A stretch of 63,508 bases of DNA, counting the filler, from Collodictyon triciliatum (lineage: Eukaryota), in NCBI GenBank assembly GCA_043381765.1. It is 12 parts of 12 records of this genome, joined end to end, with 100 filler letters (N's around TTAATTAATTAA, not from the genome) between each part and the next. Parts side by side here need not be neighbours in the genome. Positions count along the whole stretch, not along the records: positions 39,935 to 45,161 come from JBHJMP010005368.1; positions 45,262 to 50,505 come from JBHJMP010005369.1; 10 more parts are not named here. One strand, given 5' to 3'. Under the pieces are notes generated by a model, which worked only from the letters and a program-made list of their open reading frames with translations, made no database searches and was not told the origin of the DNA. The position numbers and the translations under genes are program-made. Positions within the stretch are counted from its first letter, which is position 1. The number at the start of each line of letters is the position of its first letter. This document shows, piece after piece, positions 44,665 through 50,505 of this stretch.

Positions 44665-45262
44665 TCAGTCTCTTTGAGAATGAGACTTTTTTTTTCTTTC
44701 ATGATTGACGTCTCAACTTCCGGCCGGTGGTGGGCTTCTGGGTCTGCCTTCAAGGCGCAACGCAAACAATAAAACCACCAAAATATCCGATGTGGAAATA
44801 TTATATACGGAATTTATATCAATAATACTCGAAACATTTATTTAATGAATTTAATTACAATCAGTATATAAAACTATATATATAATATACAATTAGTATT
44901 AGTGTGTATCTGTTGCTTTTTTCAACAAAAAAGTCACCTTCTTTGTCATGAATAGCTCGGTAAATATCGTTATGAAGCAGCTTGCTATGGAAACTTTCAA
45001 TGAATGTTTGTAACCGTAGCAGAACAGCCGAATCAGTAAAACAAGACAACCCATGTTTTCGATCTGGCCAAGATGAACAAAAAAAAACAATAAAACAATA
45101 AAACAATAAAACAATAAAACAATAAAACAATAAAACAATAAAACAATAAAACAATAAAACANNNNNNNNNNNNNNNNNNNNNNNNNNNNNNNNNNNNNNN
45201 NNNNNTTAATTAATTAANNNNNNNNNNNNNNNNNNNNNNNNNNNNNNNNNNNNNNNNNNNNA

Positions 45263-45406
45263 AAATACGAGGGGCAATTTAAAAAAGGTGTTGACCAAGT
45301 AAATAAATACGCGCCTGTAATTCGCGGAGCTGCACAACGAAACGAATCCCTGGGAAAAGTCATGAAATCATACGACGACAATATCAGAAATAAAATTGGT
45401 TACTAG
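45263..45406 (+). CDS. 3' end of a viral ORF (amphipathic, Lys-rich)
   Basis: Open from the contig start: KYEGQFKKGVDQVNKYAPVIRGAAQRNESLGKVMKSYDDNIRNKIGY*; stops 27 bp before the MCP ATG. Confidence 0.55.
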   Translation, partial: KYEGQFKKGVDQVNKYAPVIRGAAQRNESLGKVMKSYDDNIRNKIGY

Positions 45407-45407
45407 T

Positions 45408-45433
45408 TAGAAAATTATTTTCTTTTTTAGAAT
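45408..45433 (+). promoter_or_regulatory. Putative viral late promoter TAGAAAATTATTTTCT-N10-ATG
   Basis: TTCT with C at -12 relative to the MCP ATG; same spacing as the two other visible viral starts. Confidence 0.5.
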
Positions 45434-47601: not shown

Positions 47602-47634
47602 AATTTAATATAGAAAAAAATTCTATGGTAATTT
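47602..47634. promoter_or_regulatory. 33-bp dyad-symmetric bidirectional viral promoter (TTCTA on both strands)
   Basis: ATAGAA-AAAAA-TTCTAT centred at 47618, equidistant from both divergent ATGs (47601 and 47635); C of TCTA at -12 for each gene. Confidence 0.6.
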
Positions 47635-48510
47635 ATGCAACGCCGTCTGCTAAACGAGAGAAATACAAATGAGGCCAATTATCTTTTTATTAATTCGGAG
47701 TCGAAACGAGTGAGTGGGTCAAACAACAATTTCACCTTTGATTTAAGTGATTTCCCAATTATCAAAAACAAGCCATATAATCTTTTTATAAAAAGTGTAT
47801 ACTACCCCACGACGATACACCAAATAACAGACTTGTATCAATACAATCAATTGCGAATTCGAGTATTGAATACCAACACAGGTATCAGTACGTTTTCAAC
47901 AATAACAATTGCTGAGGGTACATATAACACAAGTCAATATGCCCAAGCGGTTGCACTAGCATTAAATACTTTTTTAGCAAGCTCTGGATACGACCAGTAT
48001 GATATGGGATATGACGATATTCGCAATCGGTTTTATTTTGAAAGAAAAACAGTTGCGACACCGGCAATAAGAGTTTATATAACATCTAATGACTCGTTTT
48101 CACAATACAATGGTGAATTTGGTTTTGGTGGGTCTTATGTAATTGGATGTAATTACAACACAGAATTTGAATTACCTCTGCAAACAACTCCTAAAAAATA
48201 TCTGCCGAATCCTGGAAATTTACAACCGTACTCTTATTTTTTTATGACTATCCAGGGAATTACAAATTTGAATTTCAACACAGATGTCCCTGAGCGTTTT
48301 GATATTGCTTATCGGTGTCCATTGAATCTAAGTAATAGTAAATACCAGTACACATTCGTAGAAGAAGCAAGTGAAGAATTTACGCAACAAGTCTTTTCGG
48401 TTTTGCCGACAAGATTCAATATAAGTTTTATTGACCAGTACAACAATCTAGTTAACTTCCCGCAGACAGCCAGTGTAGATATTACTCTCAAGCTCGTTCC
48501 CGTAGAATAA
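47635..48510 (+). CDS. mCP: Minor capsid protein (penton), single jelly-roll, PLV/virophage type (291 aa)
   Basis: YLFINS..NNFTFDL..LFIKSVYYPTTIHQI..NQLRI..ITIAEGTY..ALN..YDDIRNRFYF, and C-terminal FNISFIDQYNNLVNF..VDITLKL, the typical penton motif series; lies next to the MCP. Confidence 0.82.
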   Translation: MQRRLLNERNTNEANYLFINSESKRVSGSNNNFTFDLSDFPIIKNKPYNLFIKSVYYPTTIHQITDLYQYNQLRIRVLNTNTGISTFSTITIAEGTYNTSQYAQAVALALNTFLASSGYDQYDMGYDDIRNRFYFERKTVATPAIRVYITSNDSFSQYNGEFGFGGSYVIGCNYNTEFELPLQTTPKKYLPNPGNLQPYSYFFMTIQGITNLNFNTDVPERFDIAYRCPLNLSNSKYQYTFVEEASEEFTQQVFSVLPTRFNISFIDQYNNLVNFPQTASVDITLKLVPVE

Positions 48511-49097
48511 TTTTGTATGTATTTATNNNNNNNNNNNNNNNNNNNNNNNNNNNNNNNNNNNNNNNNNNNNNNNNNNNNNNNNNNNNNNNNNNNNNNNNNN
48601 NNNNNNNNNNNNNNNNNNNNNNNNNNNNNNNNNNNNNNNNNNNNNNNNNNNNNNNNNNNNNNNNNNNNNNNNNNNNNNNNNNNNNNNNNNNNNNNNNNNN
48701 NNNNNNNNNNNNNNNNNNNNNNNNNNNNNNNNNNNNNNNNNNNNNNNNNNNNNNNNNNNNNNNNNNNNNNNNNNNNNNNNNNNNNNNNNNNNNNNNNNNN
48801 NNNNNNNNNNNNNNNNNNNNNNNNNNNNNNNNNNNNNNNNNNNNNNNNNNNNNNNNNNNNNNNNNNNNNNNNNNNNNNNNNNNNNNNNNNNNNNNNNNNN
48901 NNNNNNNNNNNNNNNNNNNNNNNNNNNNNNNNNNNNNNNNNNNNNNNNNNNNNNNNNNNNNNNNNNNNNNNNNNNNNNNNNNNNNNNNNNNNNNNNNNNN
49001 NNNNNNNNNNNNNNNNNNNNNNNNNNNNNNNNNNNNNNNNNNNNNNNNNNNNNNNNNNNNNNNNNNNNNNNNNNNNNNNNNNNNNNNNNNNNNNNNN

Positions 49098-50505
49098 TTA
49101 CCAGTGATGTACCAAATATGCAAAATTCTGTGACTGCCGGGACTGTTGGAACCGACCGTAGTGTAAGTGTAGTTTCAACTAATTGGGCTTCAAGTTCACT
49201 AGATTCGGTATGTTCCTACACACAAGACAATCCGGGCTCACTCGTAGCCAGTTCGATGGCCGTGGAAATAAAAAACAATCAAATTCTTTTTACTGGAGCC
49301 GGAACAAATGCATCAACTACTTTACCAACTCGTGTAACACGAATGACTATTGACAATAGTTTAGTAACGACAAATACGTGTCTAAGTGCTGCAGCTGGAT
49401 TATGTTTACCTACCTCGTCGCAAGCAAATAATCGAACCTTAACTCAAAATGACAATTCTTATCAGCGTTTGAATTTTTCTAATAATGATGTTACATATAC
49501 ACTCCCAGCCTTGAATTCAGGAACAATATTTTACTTGAATCCGTTTGCTAATGTAGGAAGTACATTTGGCGCTTTTATAGCAAGGGGAACAGGAGTCGCT
49601 AATTTTGAGCTTTACTTTAATGGCGTTCGAACACAAACAACTAGTAATGTACAATTAGAGGCTGGTTGTATATATCAATGTATATATTTTGCAAATTTGA
49701 CTAACTGGCACATTATAAGACTGGGTATAACTCAACAGATAAATTTTACGGGTGGCAGTGCTACAGTCCCGAGTATATCTTTTAACGATCCGCCCGGTGT
49801 TACTGGTAATACAGCAAGTGGATTATACGGGGCAGATAATTCAGTGTCAATAAGTACAAATGGTGTAGAAAGATTTACTGTAACTAATAATGGGGTTGCA
49901 AGTCAATCTCGTTTTATATCCAGTAGAGGTCTCGCAATTGGTAACGGATACAGTTTCAACGGTACGGACATTGCTGGGCTATATGCGAGTTCTAGTGATA
50001 ACACAATGCATTTAGTCAGCAGTACAGTACCTGTATTGTCAGTTTTAAATGTGGGTGGAACTGGAGGCACTGGTGGGACTGGAACAGCAACAGTCACCGG
50101 CAGTTTAACGGTATCTCAACAGTTATTTCAACCAACCAATGTAATTACTGTAACTGCCAACAGTCAAACTTTCGACCTGGGCGCAACATTTAGTAACAAT
50201 GTTATAGTTGATATGGGGGGTTTTACACCTGTGGTATTAAGATTTCTTAGCTCTGGCTTTACAAATGGAATGTCATTTGATATTTTGCCGAATAGCAATT
50301 TATCAGGCGCTGTTCTTCAATTAACGCCAATTGCGGGTGTTACTTTACGAGTTTATCAAGGAGGACTAACAACTAATATTACTTCGACAGTCGATGTATC
50401 AACACGCGCATCTCTTCACTGTACATTTCATAATAATATCTGGTACATTAATTCACATTGGATGGCAAGCAATGCAACTTTTCCAGGGACGGTTACAGCT
50501 ACCGG
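49098..50505 (+). CDS. Putative virion fibre/spike protein, partial at both ends
   Basis: >460 aa rich in Thr/Ser/Asn/Gly; frame open back to the gap; fibre-type motif GSATVPSISF..GLYG..ISTNGVERFTV with a second degenerate copy; follows the penton gene. Confidence 0.65.

What the first reader, a model, noticed from the sequence alone, without database searches (positions are those of the whole stretch)
45262..50505. Polinton-like virus/virophage-type capsid module hidden in a protist assembly
Seen: unlike every other contig, this one is intronless, lacks microsatellites and is almost entirely coding, with uninterrupted ORFs of 589, 124, 291 and >460 aa. Established: double jelly-roll MCP plus single jelly-roll penton is the virion module of Polintons, PLVs and virophages. 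The MCP motifs fit my recollection of PgVV/Gezel-type PLVs better than Sputnik or mavirus. Inference: a divergent, probably undescribed PLV with intact structural genes, either endogenous or co-sequenced. Contig breaks in non-repetitive sequence would fit several divergent copies. Packaging ATPase, polymerase/helicase, integrase and TIRs are not in this fragment.
Basis: partly seen in the sequence, partly recalled or inferred. Interest (0 to 1): 0.9.

Follow-up and report, generated by a model that had tools for sequence, protein, structure and literature searches.

The report
Polinton-like virus capsid gene fragment
This 5.2-kb contig is a piece of a small DNA virus of protists (a Polinton-like virus) carrying intact shell, shell-corner and fibre-like genes; such viruses are already well known in protist assemblies and freshwater metagenomes.

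Summary
Contig 45262-50505 is about 98% coding, with ORFs of 589, 124 and 291 aa and one open-ended ORF.

- **Capsid proteins:** The 589-aa protein models as a double jelly-roll major capsid protein (MCP): PBCV-1 Z 21.0, Sputnik 17.3, mavirus 15.8. The 291-aa protein models as a penton: PBCV-1 penton Z 15.6, mavirus penton 11.9.
- **Relatives:** Syntenic metagenome contigs add an A32 packaging ATPase, SF3/D5-type helicases and a weak rve integrase. One is a 15.6-kb contig with 69-nt terminal inverted repeats.
- **Last ORF:** It starts at the first base of an unmentioned 571-N gap, runs at least 659 aa, and is a mosaic, probably fibre-like protein.
- **Environment:** Copies 95-99% alike occur in freshwater and wetland metagenomes of four studies.
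- **Promoter-like element:** An invariant 11-nt element lies 9-10 nt before capsid-module start codons across the family.

Not resolved: whether the element is endogenous or co-sequenced, since both contig ends lie inside viral genes, and whether it belongs to the PgVV/Gezel group. Verdict: a new member of a known kind.

The parts
45263..45406 (+). 3' end (47 codons plus stop) of a conserved gene for a protein of about 136-144 aa that precedes the MCP gene in relatives. It is cut by the contig end. Function unknown.
   Evidence: tblastn: 94% identical to L016 and 60-62% to L002, L003, L004 and L006 over 47 aa. The alignment across 7 loci shows a conserved Gly-rich core and C-terminus. No Pfam or PHROG family for the L006 homologue.
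45414..45424 (+). Promoter-like 11-mer ATTATTTTCTT, ending 9 nt before the MCP start codon.
   Evidence: Pattern ATTWTTTTCTW: 26 of 28 matches in the virus contig plus 17 loci (81,927 bases, both strands) lie 9-15 nt before the start of an ORF of at least 80 aa, or of a shorter ORF cut by a contig end. 24 of them lie at 9-10 nt. TTTTCT occurs in 25 of 68 upstream 40-mers against 3.1 expected.
45434..47203 (+). Major capsid protein, 589 aa, double jelly-roll.
   Evidence: AF2 model on 33 sequences: pLDDT 79.0, pTM 0.83. VIA-align: PBCV-1 8h2i_bx Z 21.0 (352 aligned, rmsd 3.0), faustovirus 20.4, ASFV p72 19.3, Sputnik 17.3, mavirus 15.8, PRD1 P3 13.2. Foldseek: PDB E about 1e-14, BFVD 1.5e-19. 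No Pfam family at E<=1.
47196..47235 (.). AT-rich palindrome in the 23-nt gap between the convergent MCP and 124-aa genes. Possibly a two-way terminator (inference).
   Evidence: Inverted repeat I1, 24-nt overlapping arms, 79% complementary.
47227..47601 (-). Small Lys/Glu-rich protein, 124 aa, conserved in this position and orientation. Function unknown; a virion core, DNA-binding or assembly protein is a guess.
   Evidence: tblastn hits in the same position in L002, L003, L004, L005, L007, L009 and L011. The N-terminal basic motif and C-terminal NPYLNQL(V/I)R motif are conserved. Only sub-threshold Pfam hits.
47602..47634 (.). 33-nt divergent intergenic region. It carries the 11-mer ATTTTTTTCTA on the minus strand (47611-47621), 9 nt before the 124-aa gene. 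Its near-palindromic mirror (…AAAAATTCTA…) lies before the penton gene.
47635..48510 (+). Penton (minor capsid) protein, 291 aa. A single jelly-roll with an insertion ('crown') domain at about residues 60-194.
   Evidence: AF2 model on 11 sequences: pLDDT 76.6, pTM 0.66. VIA-align against 48,161 PDB representatives: PBCV-1 penton 8h2i_bG Z 15.6 (257 aligned), 6ncl_a6 12.5, mavirus penton 6g41_A 11.9, fowl adenovirus penton base 11.4, EhV-201 10.8, Sputnik penton 3j26_N 10.5; later rows are 7.2 or lower. BFVD: TvV-S1 protein E 2.7e-12 with TM 0.65, mavirus minor capsid 3.4e-11.
48527..50505 (+). Fibre-like mosaic structural protein, at least 659 aa. The first 191 codons are hidden in the 571-N gap, and the 3' end is cut by the contig end.
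   Evidence: Loose ends at 48526 in runs X1, X2 and X3 begin with ATG and read MTSYEIGSN, the start of the L003 ORF after its penton gene. An X4 contig bridges the gap with exactly 571 nt. Window residue 1 (49100) aligns to residue 192 of P0044, P0045 and P0046. The frame is open from the gap edge. Homologues are 710-809 aa. The positional counterparts in L011 and L008 hit PHROG tail-fibre and tail families, E 5e-13 and 1e-8.

Best explanation
The contig is a fragment of the genome of a Polinton-like virus (PLV), a small double-stranded DNA virus of protists. It holds the virion (late) gene block in this order: the end of a small conserved protein gene; the double jelly-roll major capsid protein; a small basic protein on the opposite strand; the penton; and a long fibre-like protein. 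By analogy with solved capsids of this lineage, MCP trimers would tile the icosahedral faces and penton pentamers would close the twelve corners. The long protein, with a conserved N-terminal part and an exchangeable C-terminal part, would be a surface fibre or spike that recognises the host or a helper virus. All of that is inferred. Each gene has its own short AT-rich upstream region. An invariant 11-nt element, ATT(A/T)TTTTCT(A/T), sits 9-10 nt before the start codons of the MCP and small-protein genes. I read it as a late promoter that gives leader-poor single-gene transcripts, as in virophages and giant viruses; this too is inferred. The genes are intact and under purifying selection. The rest of the genome (A32 ATPase, helicase-primase, possibly integrase, TIRs) lies outside this contig. 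Whether this copy is integrated in the protist genome or came along as a free or infecting virus is not decidable from the window.
For: Folds: MCP model Z 21.0 to the PBCV-1 MCP, with 232 of 971 re-aligned chains at Z>=8; every one of the 50 rows shown is a double jelly-roll capsid or scaffold protein. The penton model's six top rows against 48,161 chains are pentons, Z 10.5-15.6, against 7.2 or lower for the rest.

Synteny: the order MCP, small gene on the minus strand, penton recurs in L001, L003, L004, L005, L007, L008, L009, L010 and L011.

Relatives carry PLV hallmarks. L006, whose MCP is 69% identical, has a DUF5906/VapE-like SF3 helicase, then Pox_A32 ATPase (E 3e-13), then the small protein, then the MCP. 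L001 has GIY-YIG, ThyX, Pox_A32 (7.5e-15) and D5_N. L008 has Pox_A32 and rve at E 1e-4, below Pfam's cut-off. L008 also has inverted repeats of 69 nt, 91% complementary, at 1-69 and 15486-15554 of a 15,603-nt contig.

The three PLV core genes are MCP, mCP and packaging ATPase (PMC7805220, passages).

Intactness: the MCP aligns over 99-100% of its length to 32 of the 33 homologues (P0019 covers 74%), which are 436-632 aa long, and the penton aligns over 99-100% to 5 of its 7. Among the 35 listed differences from the X3 contigs, out of 82 in those two records, 23 of 30 changed codons are synonymous.

Environment: 20 of 24 listed runs hold part of 45262-48526, and 4 hold half or more of its sampled words. 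Contigs 95-99% alike cover 45262-48526 in all 4 runs laid, from 4 studies. One 12,670-nt contig extends about 10.8 kb beyond the left contig end.

Promoter-like element.
Against: This fragment contains no ATPase, replication gene, integrase or TIR, so assignment to PLVs rests on relatives.

Neither capsid protein matches any named family by sequence. Pfam gave 0 families at E<=1. PDB profile searches gave 0 hits at E<=1. tblastn against the phage collection found nothing.

The fold assignments rest on AF2 models of moderate confidence (pLDDT 79.0 and 76.6) built from shallow alignments of 33 and 11 sequences.

The closest viral-collection relative is filed in a giant-virus MAG bin.

The window's own long ORF has no PHROG or Pfam hit. 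Its fibre reading rests on position, mosaicism and hits of distant positional counterparts.

The promoter reading has no transcript evidence.
Confidence: 0.88

Rival explanations
1. The copy is an endogenous (integrated) PLV of the protist, one of several divergent copies, and that is why the short-read assembly broke it.
For: PLVs are known to integrate massively in protist genomes (PMC10120064 and PMC12220804; search listing and abstracts only). A relative carries a weak rve integrase hit and TIRs. The scaffold is short and gapped, and it ends in the variable part of the fibre-like gene, where an environmental contig also diverges after 49353. The contig's GC of 0.378 lies within the range of the other contigs, 0.33-0.45.
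Against: There is no host junction: both ends lie inside viral genes. No other contig of the window matches any protein of the relatives. The genes are intact and under purifying selection, which fits a recent insertion and a free virus equally well. Strain mixtures of a free virus break assemblies in the same way: X1 gave 46 laid pieces in three identity classes.
Confidence: 0.4
2. The contig is a co-sequenced free or actively infecting virus, or an environmental or culture contaminant, not part of the protist genome.
For: Sequences 95-99% alike occur in freshwater, wetland and riverine metagenomes. 20 of 24 listed runs hold part of it, from 10 studies, and the 4 runs laid come from 4 studies. 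The genes are intact. The contig holds no flanking host sequence.
Against: A virus at good coverage usually assembles into one contig of 15-25 kb rather than a gapped 5.2-kb scaffold. Metagenome signal could equally come from host cells carrying proviruses. I could not examine read depth in the source assembly, because no genome is held and its own run was not among those listed.
Confidence: 0.45
3. It is a fragment of a giant virus (Nucleocytoviricota) genome or of a giant endogenous viral element, not of a small PLV.
For: The best structural matches of both capsid proteins are Nucleocytoviricota proteins. Relative L001 is catalogued in a giant-virus MAG bin. 2 of 56 distant profile hits carry Pfam Capsid_N.
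Against: L008 packs ATPase, MCP, penton, the fibre-like gene and an integrase-like gene between TIRs in 15.6 kb. L001 and L006 pack ATPase, helicase, MCP and penton within a few kb. There is no Capsid_NCLDV Pfam hit. PLV-sized viruses are known to be mis-binned with giant viruses (bioRxiv 10.64898/2026.06.19.733378, section 6).
Confidence: 0.05
4. It is a virophage in the strict sense (Sputnik/mavirus lineage) or a true Polinton/Maverick with protein-primed polymerase.
For: The same two-protein capsid architecture. The mavirus and Sputnik MCPs and pentons are significant structural matches, Z 15.8-17.3 and 10.5-11.9.
Against: Those matches rank below the Nucleocytoviricota-type ones. There is no sequence similarity to the solved virophage proteins. 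The relatives' ORFs that I scanned showed SF3/D5-type helicases and neither pPolB nor a cysteine protease: 10 in L001, 6 in L008, 3 in L006 and 2 in L010, which is not every ORF.
Confidence: 0.04

Closest known systems
Polinton-like viruses (class Aquintoviricetes: PgVV/Gezel-14T group, TVS/TsV-N1 group and others; Bellas and Sommaruga 2021, PMC7805220; 2026 preprint 10.64898/2026.06.19.733378)
   Same: Double jelly-roll MCP and penton here. A32 ATPase, SF3/D5 helicase-primase, an optional integrase and TIRs in relatives. One relative has a genome of about 15.6 kb. Aquatic distribution. The best BFVD penton matches include a Tetraselmis viridis virus S1 protein. PgVV also encodes tail-fibre-like proteins (bioRxiv 10.1101/2022.07.28.501842, passages).
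   Different: No sequence-level link to any named PLV group could be made with the tools at hand. The mimivirus early motif AAAATTGA, which PgVV uses, is absent from this contig (0 of 8 window matches lie in it), though in PgVV it was not reported upstream of capsid genes. Here the penton is more conserved than the MCP (90% against 69% aa to L003), whereas mCPs were reported as highly variable within PLV groups (PMC7805220).
'NCLDV-like' PLV groups (Zephyr-, Zora- and Alpensee/GKS2-viruses, VC40) of the 2026 Bellas and Sommaruga framework
   Same: PLV-sized genomes whose MCP and ATPase resemble those of Nucleocytoviricota. Freshwater origin. Some were previously binned as giant-virus MAGs (section 6). 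Here the MCP model scores highest against PBCV-1, faustovirus and ASFV, and relative L001 sits in a GVMAG bin.
   Different: I did not see Mriya48, HUH endonuclease, VLTF2/3, Tet or Tlr6F in the relatives' ORFs that were scanned with Pfam. Those markers may not be Pfam-detectable. The group HMMs were not available, so membership is untested.
Virophages mavirus and Sputnik (solved MCPs 6G45 and 3J26; pentons 6G41 and 3J26_N)
   Same: Same capsid architecture, including a penton with an insertion domain. Compact single-gene units with a short conserved promoter element just upstream of the ATG. Mavirus uses 'TCTA' flanked by AT-rich sequence, which is the CroV late promoter (PMC8547959, section 10).
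   Different: Lower structural scores than for Nucleocytoviricota-type proteins and no sequence similarity. The element here is ATT(A/T)TTTTCT(A/T); it only sometimes contains TCTA. No protease was seen in the relatives' ORFs that I scanned.
Adenovirus penton base plus fibre, and PRD1 P31 plus spike (vertex complexes of the same capsid lineage)
   Same: The penton fold matches the fowl adenovirus penton base at Z 11.4. A long fibre-like gene lies directly after the penton gene.
   Different: No sequence relation. Attachment of the long protein to the penton is not shown.

Membership tests
Polinton-like viruses (PLV) | Double jelly-roll major capsid protein | tested here: met
   AF2 model pLDDT 79.0. 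Z 21.0 to PBCV-1, 17.3 to Sputnik, 15.8 to mavirus. Foldseek probability 1.00.
Polinton-like viruses (PLV) | Penton / minor capsid protein (single jelly-roll) | tested here: met
   AF2 model pLDDT 76.6. The six top PDB rows are pentons, Z 10.5-15.6. BFVD hits include the mavirus minor capsid protein and a TvV-S1 protein.
Polinton-like viruses (PLV) | A32/FtsK-type DNA packaging ATPase | tested here: inconclusive
   Not on this fragment, and not on any other contig of the window: tblastn with the relatives' proteins found nothing outside 45262-50505. It is present next to the capsid block in relatives L001, L006 and L008, Pox_A32 E 1e-13 to 1e-15. The whole assembly was not available.
Polinton-like viruses (PLV) | Small genome (about 15-40 kb), often with TIRs; replication by helicase-primase or pPolB | tested here: inconclusive
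   Only relatives could be tested. L008 is 15,603 nt with 69-nt inverted ends. There are D5_N, DUF5906 and VapE-like helicases in L001 and L006. This element is truncated at both ends.
PgVV / Gezel-14T group of PLVs | MCP in the PgVV MCP protein cluster or HMM | not testable with these tools
   No named PgVV or Gezel sequence or HMM could be fetched.
PgVV / Gezel-14T group of PLVs | Mimivirus-type early promoter AAAATTGA upstream of some genes | tested here: inconclusive
   0 matches within 45262-50505. In PgVV, however, the motif was reported upstream of replication and other genes, not capsid genes, and only capsid genes are present here.
Virophages (Sputnik/mavirus lineage) | Virophage-type MCP plus cysteine maturation protease | tested here: inconclusive
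   The fold is shared, but there is no sequence hit to solved virophage proteins. No protease family appeared in the relatives' ORFs scanned. Not all ORFs were scanned, and this fragment cannot show it.
Polintons/Mavericks proper | Protein-primed PolB plus rve integrase | tested here: inconclusive
   Neither is on the fragment. Relative L008 has a weak rve hit, E 1e-4, 22.8 bits against a cut-off of 32.6. No pPolB family was seen in the scanned ORFs.
Nucleocytoviricota (giant virus) MCP family, Pfam Capsid_NCLDV / Capsid_N | Sequence match to the Pfam profiles | tested here: not met
   0 Pfam families at E<=1 for the MCP. Only 2 of 56 distant profile relatives match Capsid_N.

The most novel reading that the evidence does not exclude
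This is an inducible provirus of a widespread freshwater PLV lineage with a virophage-like lifestyle. Its capsid genes are wired to one exact 11-nt element, ATT(A/T)TTTTCT(A/T), 9-10 nt before the ATG. The element has stayed letter-perfect between lineages whose capsid proteins are only about 34% identical. The reading is that it is the late promoter of a still unidentified helper giant virus, so it could be used as a probe to find that helper and its host. A second strand of this reading is that the penton plus fibre-anchor block moves between capsid backgrounds by recombination.
Probability: 0.15. Interest if true: 0.55.

Novelty: new member of a known kind. Interest (0 to 1): 0.33.

Why it matters
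It adds one more PLV lineage associated with a protist assembly. PLVs are now viewed as very abundant aquatic viruses, as frequent genome invaders, and in some cases as anti-giant-virus defences (PMC10120064, PMC12220804 and PMC10945749 from the search listing and abstracts; 10.1101/2025.10.09.676808, one passage).

The practical value is modest. The contig should be flagged as viral rather than host in the assembly.

The lineage has three features that could be used further:
- a strictly conserved promoter-like element that could link it to a helper virus or a transcription factor;
- a penton that is much less diverged than its neighbouring MCP, with synonymous divergence unsaturated against saturated;
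- a mosaic fibre-like gene whose distal part differs between otherwise near-identical strains.

The phenomenon itself is not new.

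Tried and rejected
- **Earlier findings of this scan:** nothing for this genome or this sequence. A word search returned only unrelated giant-virus penton notes.
- **Sequence-level naming failed throughout:** Pfam on the four window ORFs; PDB phmmer and profile searches; tblastn against 50,697 phage records; cluster look-up, which gave only 'hypothetical protein'; and Pfam on the long-ORF homologues.
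- **PHROGs:** nothing for the window's own long ORF, P0044, P0047 or P0051, nor for the two small proteins. Only the L011 and L008 counterparts hit.
- **ESM Atlas on P0044:** only unnamed phage clusters at score 0.92, sharing 152-167 of 256 features; one carries T4_gp9_10_N in 11% of its members. This is a weak lead only.
- **Complex prediction:** two penton copies plus residues 1-200 of P0044, the N-terminal part of the long protein. Result: no verdict, score 0.00. This is neither for nor against binding.
- **Read laying cover:** none of the four runs covered 49354-50505, and only X4 covered 49098-49353. Absence of cover is not evidence.
- **Mis-specified pattern:** my first motif pattern, ATTWTTTCTW, was one T short and matched nothing in the contig. 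It was corrected.
- **Paper searches:** 0 papers for the unnamed UniProt accessions of the best BFVD hits, and one irrelevant paper for TTTTCT as a giant-virus promoter.
- **Host identity:** Rfam found nothing in the window. Pfam on nine ORFs of other contigs gave only NHL/SGL and LRR repeats, so the host taxon was not determined.
- **Repeats:** no TIR or long repeat lies within the contig.
- **Supplements:** supplementary tables of the PLV papers (MCP clusters, HMM sets) were not consulted and may already contain this lineage.

Full report
**What the region is physically.** The window is a chain of short contigs joined by artificial spacers (N44, TTAATTAATTAA, N44). The finding's coordinates, 45262-50505, are exactly one scaffold of 5244 bases. 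It has an internal run of 571 N at 48527-49097 and a GC of 0.378, within the 0.33-0.45 range of its neighbours. No whole genome is held for the window.

**Observation.**
- The first 141 bases (45263-45403) encode the last 47 residues of a fifth conserved protein.
- With that gene end included, 4570 of 4673 non-N bases are coding.
- 'Unlike every other contig' is somewhat overstated. 2 of the 11 other contigs also lack microsatellites by my criterion, and one has a 744-aa NHL-repeat ORF.

**Major capsid protein.**
- The 589-aa protein has no Pfam family at E<=1 and no sequence match in the PDB.
- It has 33 homologues of 33-93% identity in public metagenome-derived proteins, none named.
- A profile search of 1.84 billion cluster representatives found 75 hits at E<=1e-3, 30 at E<=1e-10 and 22 at E<=1e-30.
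- Of 56 of the more distant hits, only 2 match Pfam Capsid_N.
- An AlphaFold2 model on the 33-sequence alignment (pLDDT 79.0, pTM 0.83) is a double jelly-roll.
- Foldseek gives probability 1.00 to SGIV, PBCV-1, mavirus, Sputnik, ASFV and faustovirus capsid proteins, with E about 1e-14 to 1e-12 and down to 1.5e-19 in BFVD.
- VIA-align gives Z 21.0 to PBCV-1 (352 residues, rmsd 3.0), 20.4 to faustovirus, 19.3 to ASFV p72, 18.5 to vaccinia D13, 17.3 to Sputnik, 15.8 to mavirus, about 14 to adenovirus hexons and 13.2 to PRD1-type P3.

**Penton.**
- The 291-aa protein also has no Pfam or PDB sequence match. It has 7 homologues plus translated ones in the fetched loci.
- Its model (11 sequences, pLDDT 76.6, pTM 0.66) was aligned to 48,161 PDB representatives without any Foldseek prefilter.
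- The six best rows are all capsid-vertex proteins: the PBCV-1 penton (Z 15.6, 257 aligned; a second PBCV-1 chain at 12.5), the mavirus penton 6G41 (11.9), fowl adenovirus penton base (11.4), an EhV-201 chain (10.8) and the Sputnik penton (10.5). The following rows drop to 7.2 and below.
- The adenovirus crown-derived 'ADDobody' matches residues 60-194. The protein is therefore a jelly-roll with an inserted crown domain.
- BFVD hits include a Tetraselmis viridis virus S1 protein (E 2.7e-12, TM 0.65), the mavirus minor capsid protein and adomavirus LO5.

**Context from relatives.**
- One IMG/VR contig (L001) and 17 metagenome contigs (L002-L018; L012 is the same record as L001) encode relatives.
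- The order MCP (+), small ORF (-), penton (+), long ORF (+) is conserved. So is a protein of about 140 aa directly upstream of the MCP.
- L006 (MCP 69% identical) shows, upstream of that small protein, a Pox_A32-type packaging ATPase (E 3e-13) and a 736-aa DUF5906/VapE-like helicase.
- L001 carries GIY-YIG, ThyX, Pox_A32 (7.5e-15) and a D5_N protein.
- L008 carries Pox_A32, an Endonuclease_7 domain in a 1262-aa protein and a weak rve hit, E 1e-4, below Pfam's cut-off.
- L008 also has 69-nt inverted repeats, 91% complementary, at 1-69 and 15486-15554 of its 15,603 nt. It looks like a near-complete TIR-bounded genome.
- This is the PLV gene set: MCP, mCP and ATPase are the three core genes (PMC7805220, passages).
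- No protein of these relatives matches any other contig of the window.

**The long ORF and the gap.**
- Public-run contigs laid on the scaffold show loose ends at 48526 in three runs. They start with ATG and read MTSYEIGSN, which is the start of the ORF that follows the penton gene in L003.
- One 3786-nt contig (X4) bridges the gap with exactly 571 nt.
- The frame from 48527 is the frame that is open from 49100.
- Window residue 1 at 49100 aligns to residue 192 of the 737-809-aa homologues P0044, P0045 and P0046.
- The gene is therefore at least 659 codons long, with about 50-150 codons missing at the 3' end.
- Similarity to most homologues stops at window residue 267-317. P0047 is alignable throughout at 56%. 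P0051 matches only residues 328-467. The X4 contig runs on unlike after 49353. The distal part is thus exchangeable.
- The visible 468 residues are rich in Thr, Ser, Asn, Gly and Val, about 54% together.
- The window's ORF itself has no Pfam or PHROG hit. The positional counterparts do: L011 hits a PHROG 'tail fiber protein' family (E 5e-13). L008 hits a 'tail protein' family (E 1e-8) at residues 68-124, the very segment that BLAST-matches window residues 216-266.
- PgVV/Gezel is reported to encode tail-fibre-like proteins (bioRxiv 10.1101/2022.07.28.501842, passages).
- I therefore read this gene as a fibre or spike. That is an inference.

**Small proteins.** The 124-aa minus-strand protein keeps a basic N-terminal motif and a C-terminal NPYLNQL(V/I)R motif across the close loci, with a low-complexity Lys/Glu-rich middle. 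Its role is unknown.

**Selection and mosaicism.**
- Among the 35 differences that one search lists between the window and the X3 contigs (out of 82 in those two records; the tool shows only the best supported), 23 of 30 changed codons are synonymous. The genes are under purifying selection.
- Against L003 and L005, nucleotide identity is about 57-80% over the MCP and the small gene but 81-89% over the penton.
- The proportion of synonymous differences is 0.77 and 0.75 (saturated) for the MCP, against 0.53 and 0.43 for the penton.
- Against the distant L001 and L008, both genes are similarly diverged.
- This fits recombination that moves the penton, and the fibre's N-terminal part, between MCP backgrounds. 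Unequal constraint is not excluded.

**Promoter-like element.**
- The upstream regions share ATT(A/T)TTTTCT(A/T).
- In the virus contig plus 17 loci (81,927 bases, both strands; L012 dropped as identical to L001), 26 of 28 matches lie 9-15 nt before the start of an ORF of at least 80 aa, or of a shorter ORF cut by a contig end. 24 of them lie at 9-10 nt.
- In the whole window there are 4 matches, 2 of them in this contig, before the MCP and the 124-aa gene.
- TTTTCT occurs in 25 of 68 upstream 40-mers against 3.1 expected from whole-sequence frequencies. Many of these upstream regions are homologous to one another, so the count is not one of independent events.
- The element is letter-perfect even in lineages whose MCPs are only about 34% identical (L011, L013, L015, L018).
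- The 33-nt region between the 124-aa and penton genes is a near-palindrome that presents a related sequence in both directions.
- Virophage genes are activated through giant-virus promoter motifs placed just upstream of the ATG: mavirus 'TCTA' is the CroV late promoter (PMC8547959, section 10). PgVV uses the mimivirus early motif. Compatibility of such motifs is thought to set helper specificity (10.1101/2025.10.09.676808, one passage).
- By analogy I read the element as a late promoter. Who recognises it is unknown. AAAATTGA is absent from the contig.

**Distribution.**
- 20 of 24 listed public runs hold part of 45262-48526, and 4 hold half or more of its sampled words (0.50-0.68). The labels are freshwater, wetland, riverine and aquatic metagenomes, from 10 studies.
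- In the 4 runs laid (4 studies), contigs 95-99% alike cover 45262-48526.
- One 12,670-nt contig (X3) continues about 10.8 kb beyond the left contig end.
- No listed run holds nearly all the words, so the source library was probably not among them.

**Endogenous or not.** This cannot be decided. Both scaffold ends are inside viral genes. No junction, depth or whole-assembly information was available. I put integration at about 0.4 and co-sequencing at about 0.45.

**Which PLV group.**
- The structural ranking puts Nucleocytoviricota-type proteins above virophage ones. The source is freshwater, and one relative sits in a giant-virus MAG bin.
- These points fit the 'NCLDV-like' PLV groups described in the 2026 framework preprint at least as well (section 6).
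- The supplementary tables and HMMs of those papers, which I did not see, may already contain this lineage.

**Verdict.** This is a real, intact capsid-module fragment of a Polinton-like virus. It is a new member of a known kind. The side observations (promoter-like 11-mer, penton/MCP discordance, mosaic fibre) are modestly interesting leads.

Noticed in passing
window 45414-45424 (+) and 47611-47621 (-); loci L002-L018: The invariant 11-mer ATT(A/T)TTTTCT(A/T) lies 9-10 nt before the start codons of the MCP, small-protein and 140-aa-protein genes. It is conserved even between lineages whose MCPs are about 34% identical (26 of 28 matches are upstream of ORF starts).
   Followed up: partly
window 47635-48510 compared with 45434-47203; L003, L005: The penton gene is far less diverged than the adjacent MCP gene: aa identity 89-90% against 68-69%, and synonymous difference 0.43-0.53 against 0.75-0.77. 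This suggests module exchange by recombination.
   Followed up: partly
L008 1-69 and 15486-15554: 69-nt inverted repeats, 91% complementary, sit at the two ends of a 15,603-nt metagenome contig. It is probably a near-complete TIR-bounded PLV genome with a weak rve integrase hit.
   Followed up: partly
L001 (IMG/VR contig, 12,855 nt): A PLV-like contig carrying GIY-YIG, ThyX, A32 ATPase, MCP, penton and a D5-like helicase is catalogued inside a giant-virus MAG bin. It is probably a mis-binned small virus.
   Followed up: no
window 13276-15510 (-): An uninterrupted 744-aa ORF with NHL and SGL (gluconolactonase-like) repeats on a neighbouring contig. This is unusual among the otherwise ORF-poor contigs, and its origin (host, bacterial or other) was not examined.
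   Followed up: no
window 47196-47235: An AT-rich palindrome fills the 23-nt space between the convergent MCP and 124-aa genes. It is a possible two-way terminator.
   Followed up: no
window 50506-50605 and the other spacers: Contigs are joined by an artificial N44-TTAATTAATTAA-N44 spacer, which has stops in all six frames. ORFs that touch it are artefacts of concatenation.
   Followed up: yes
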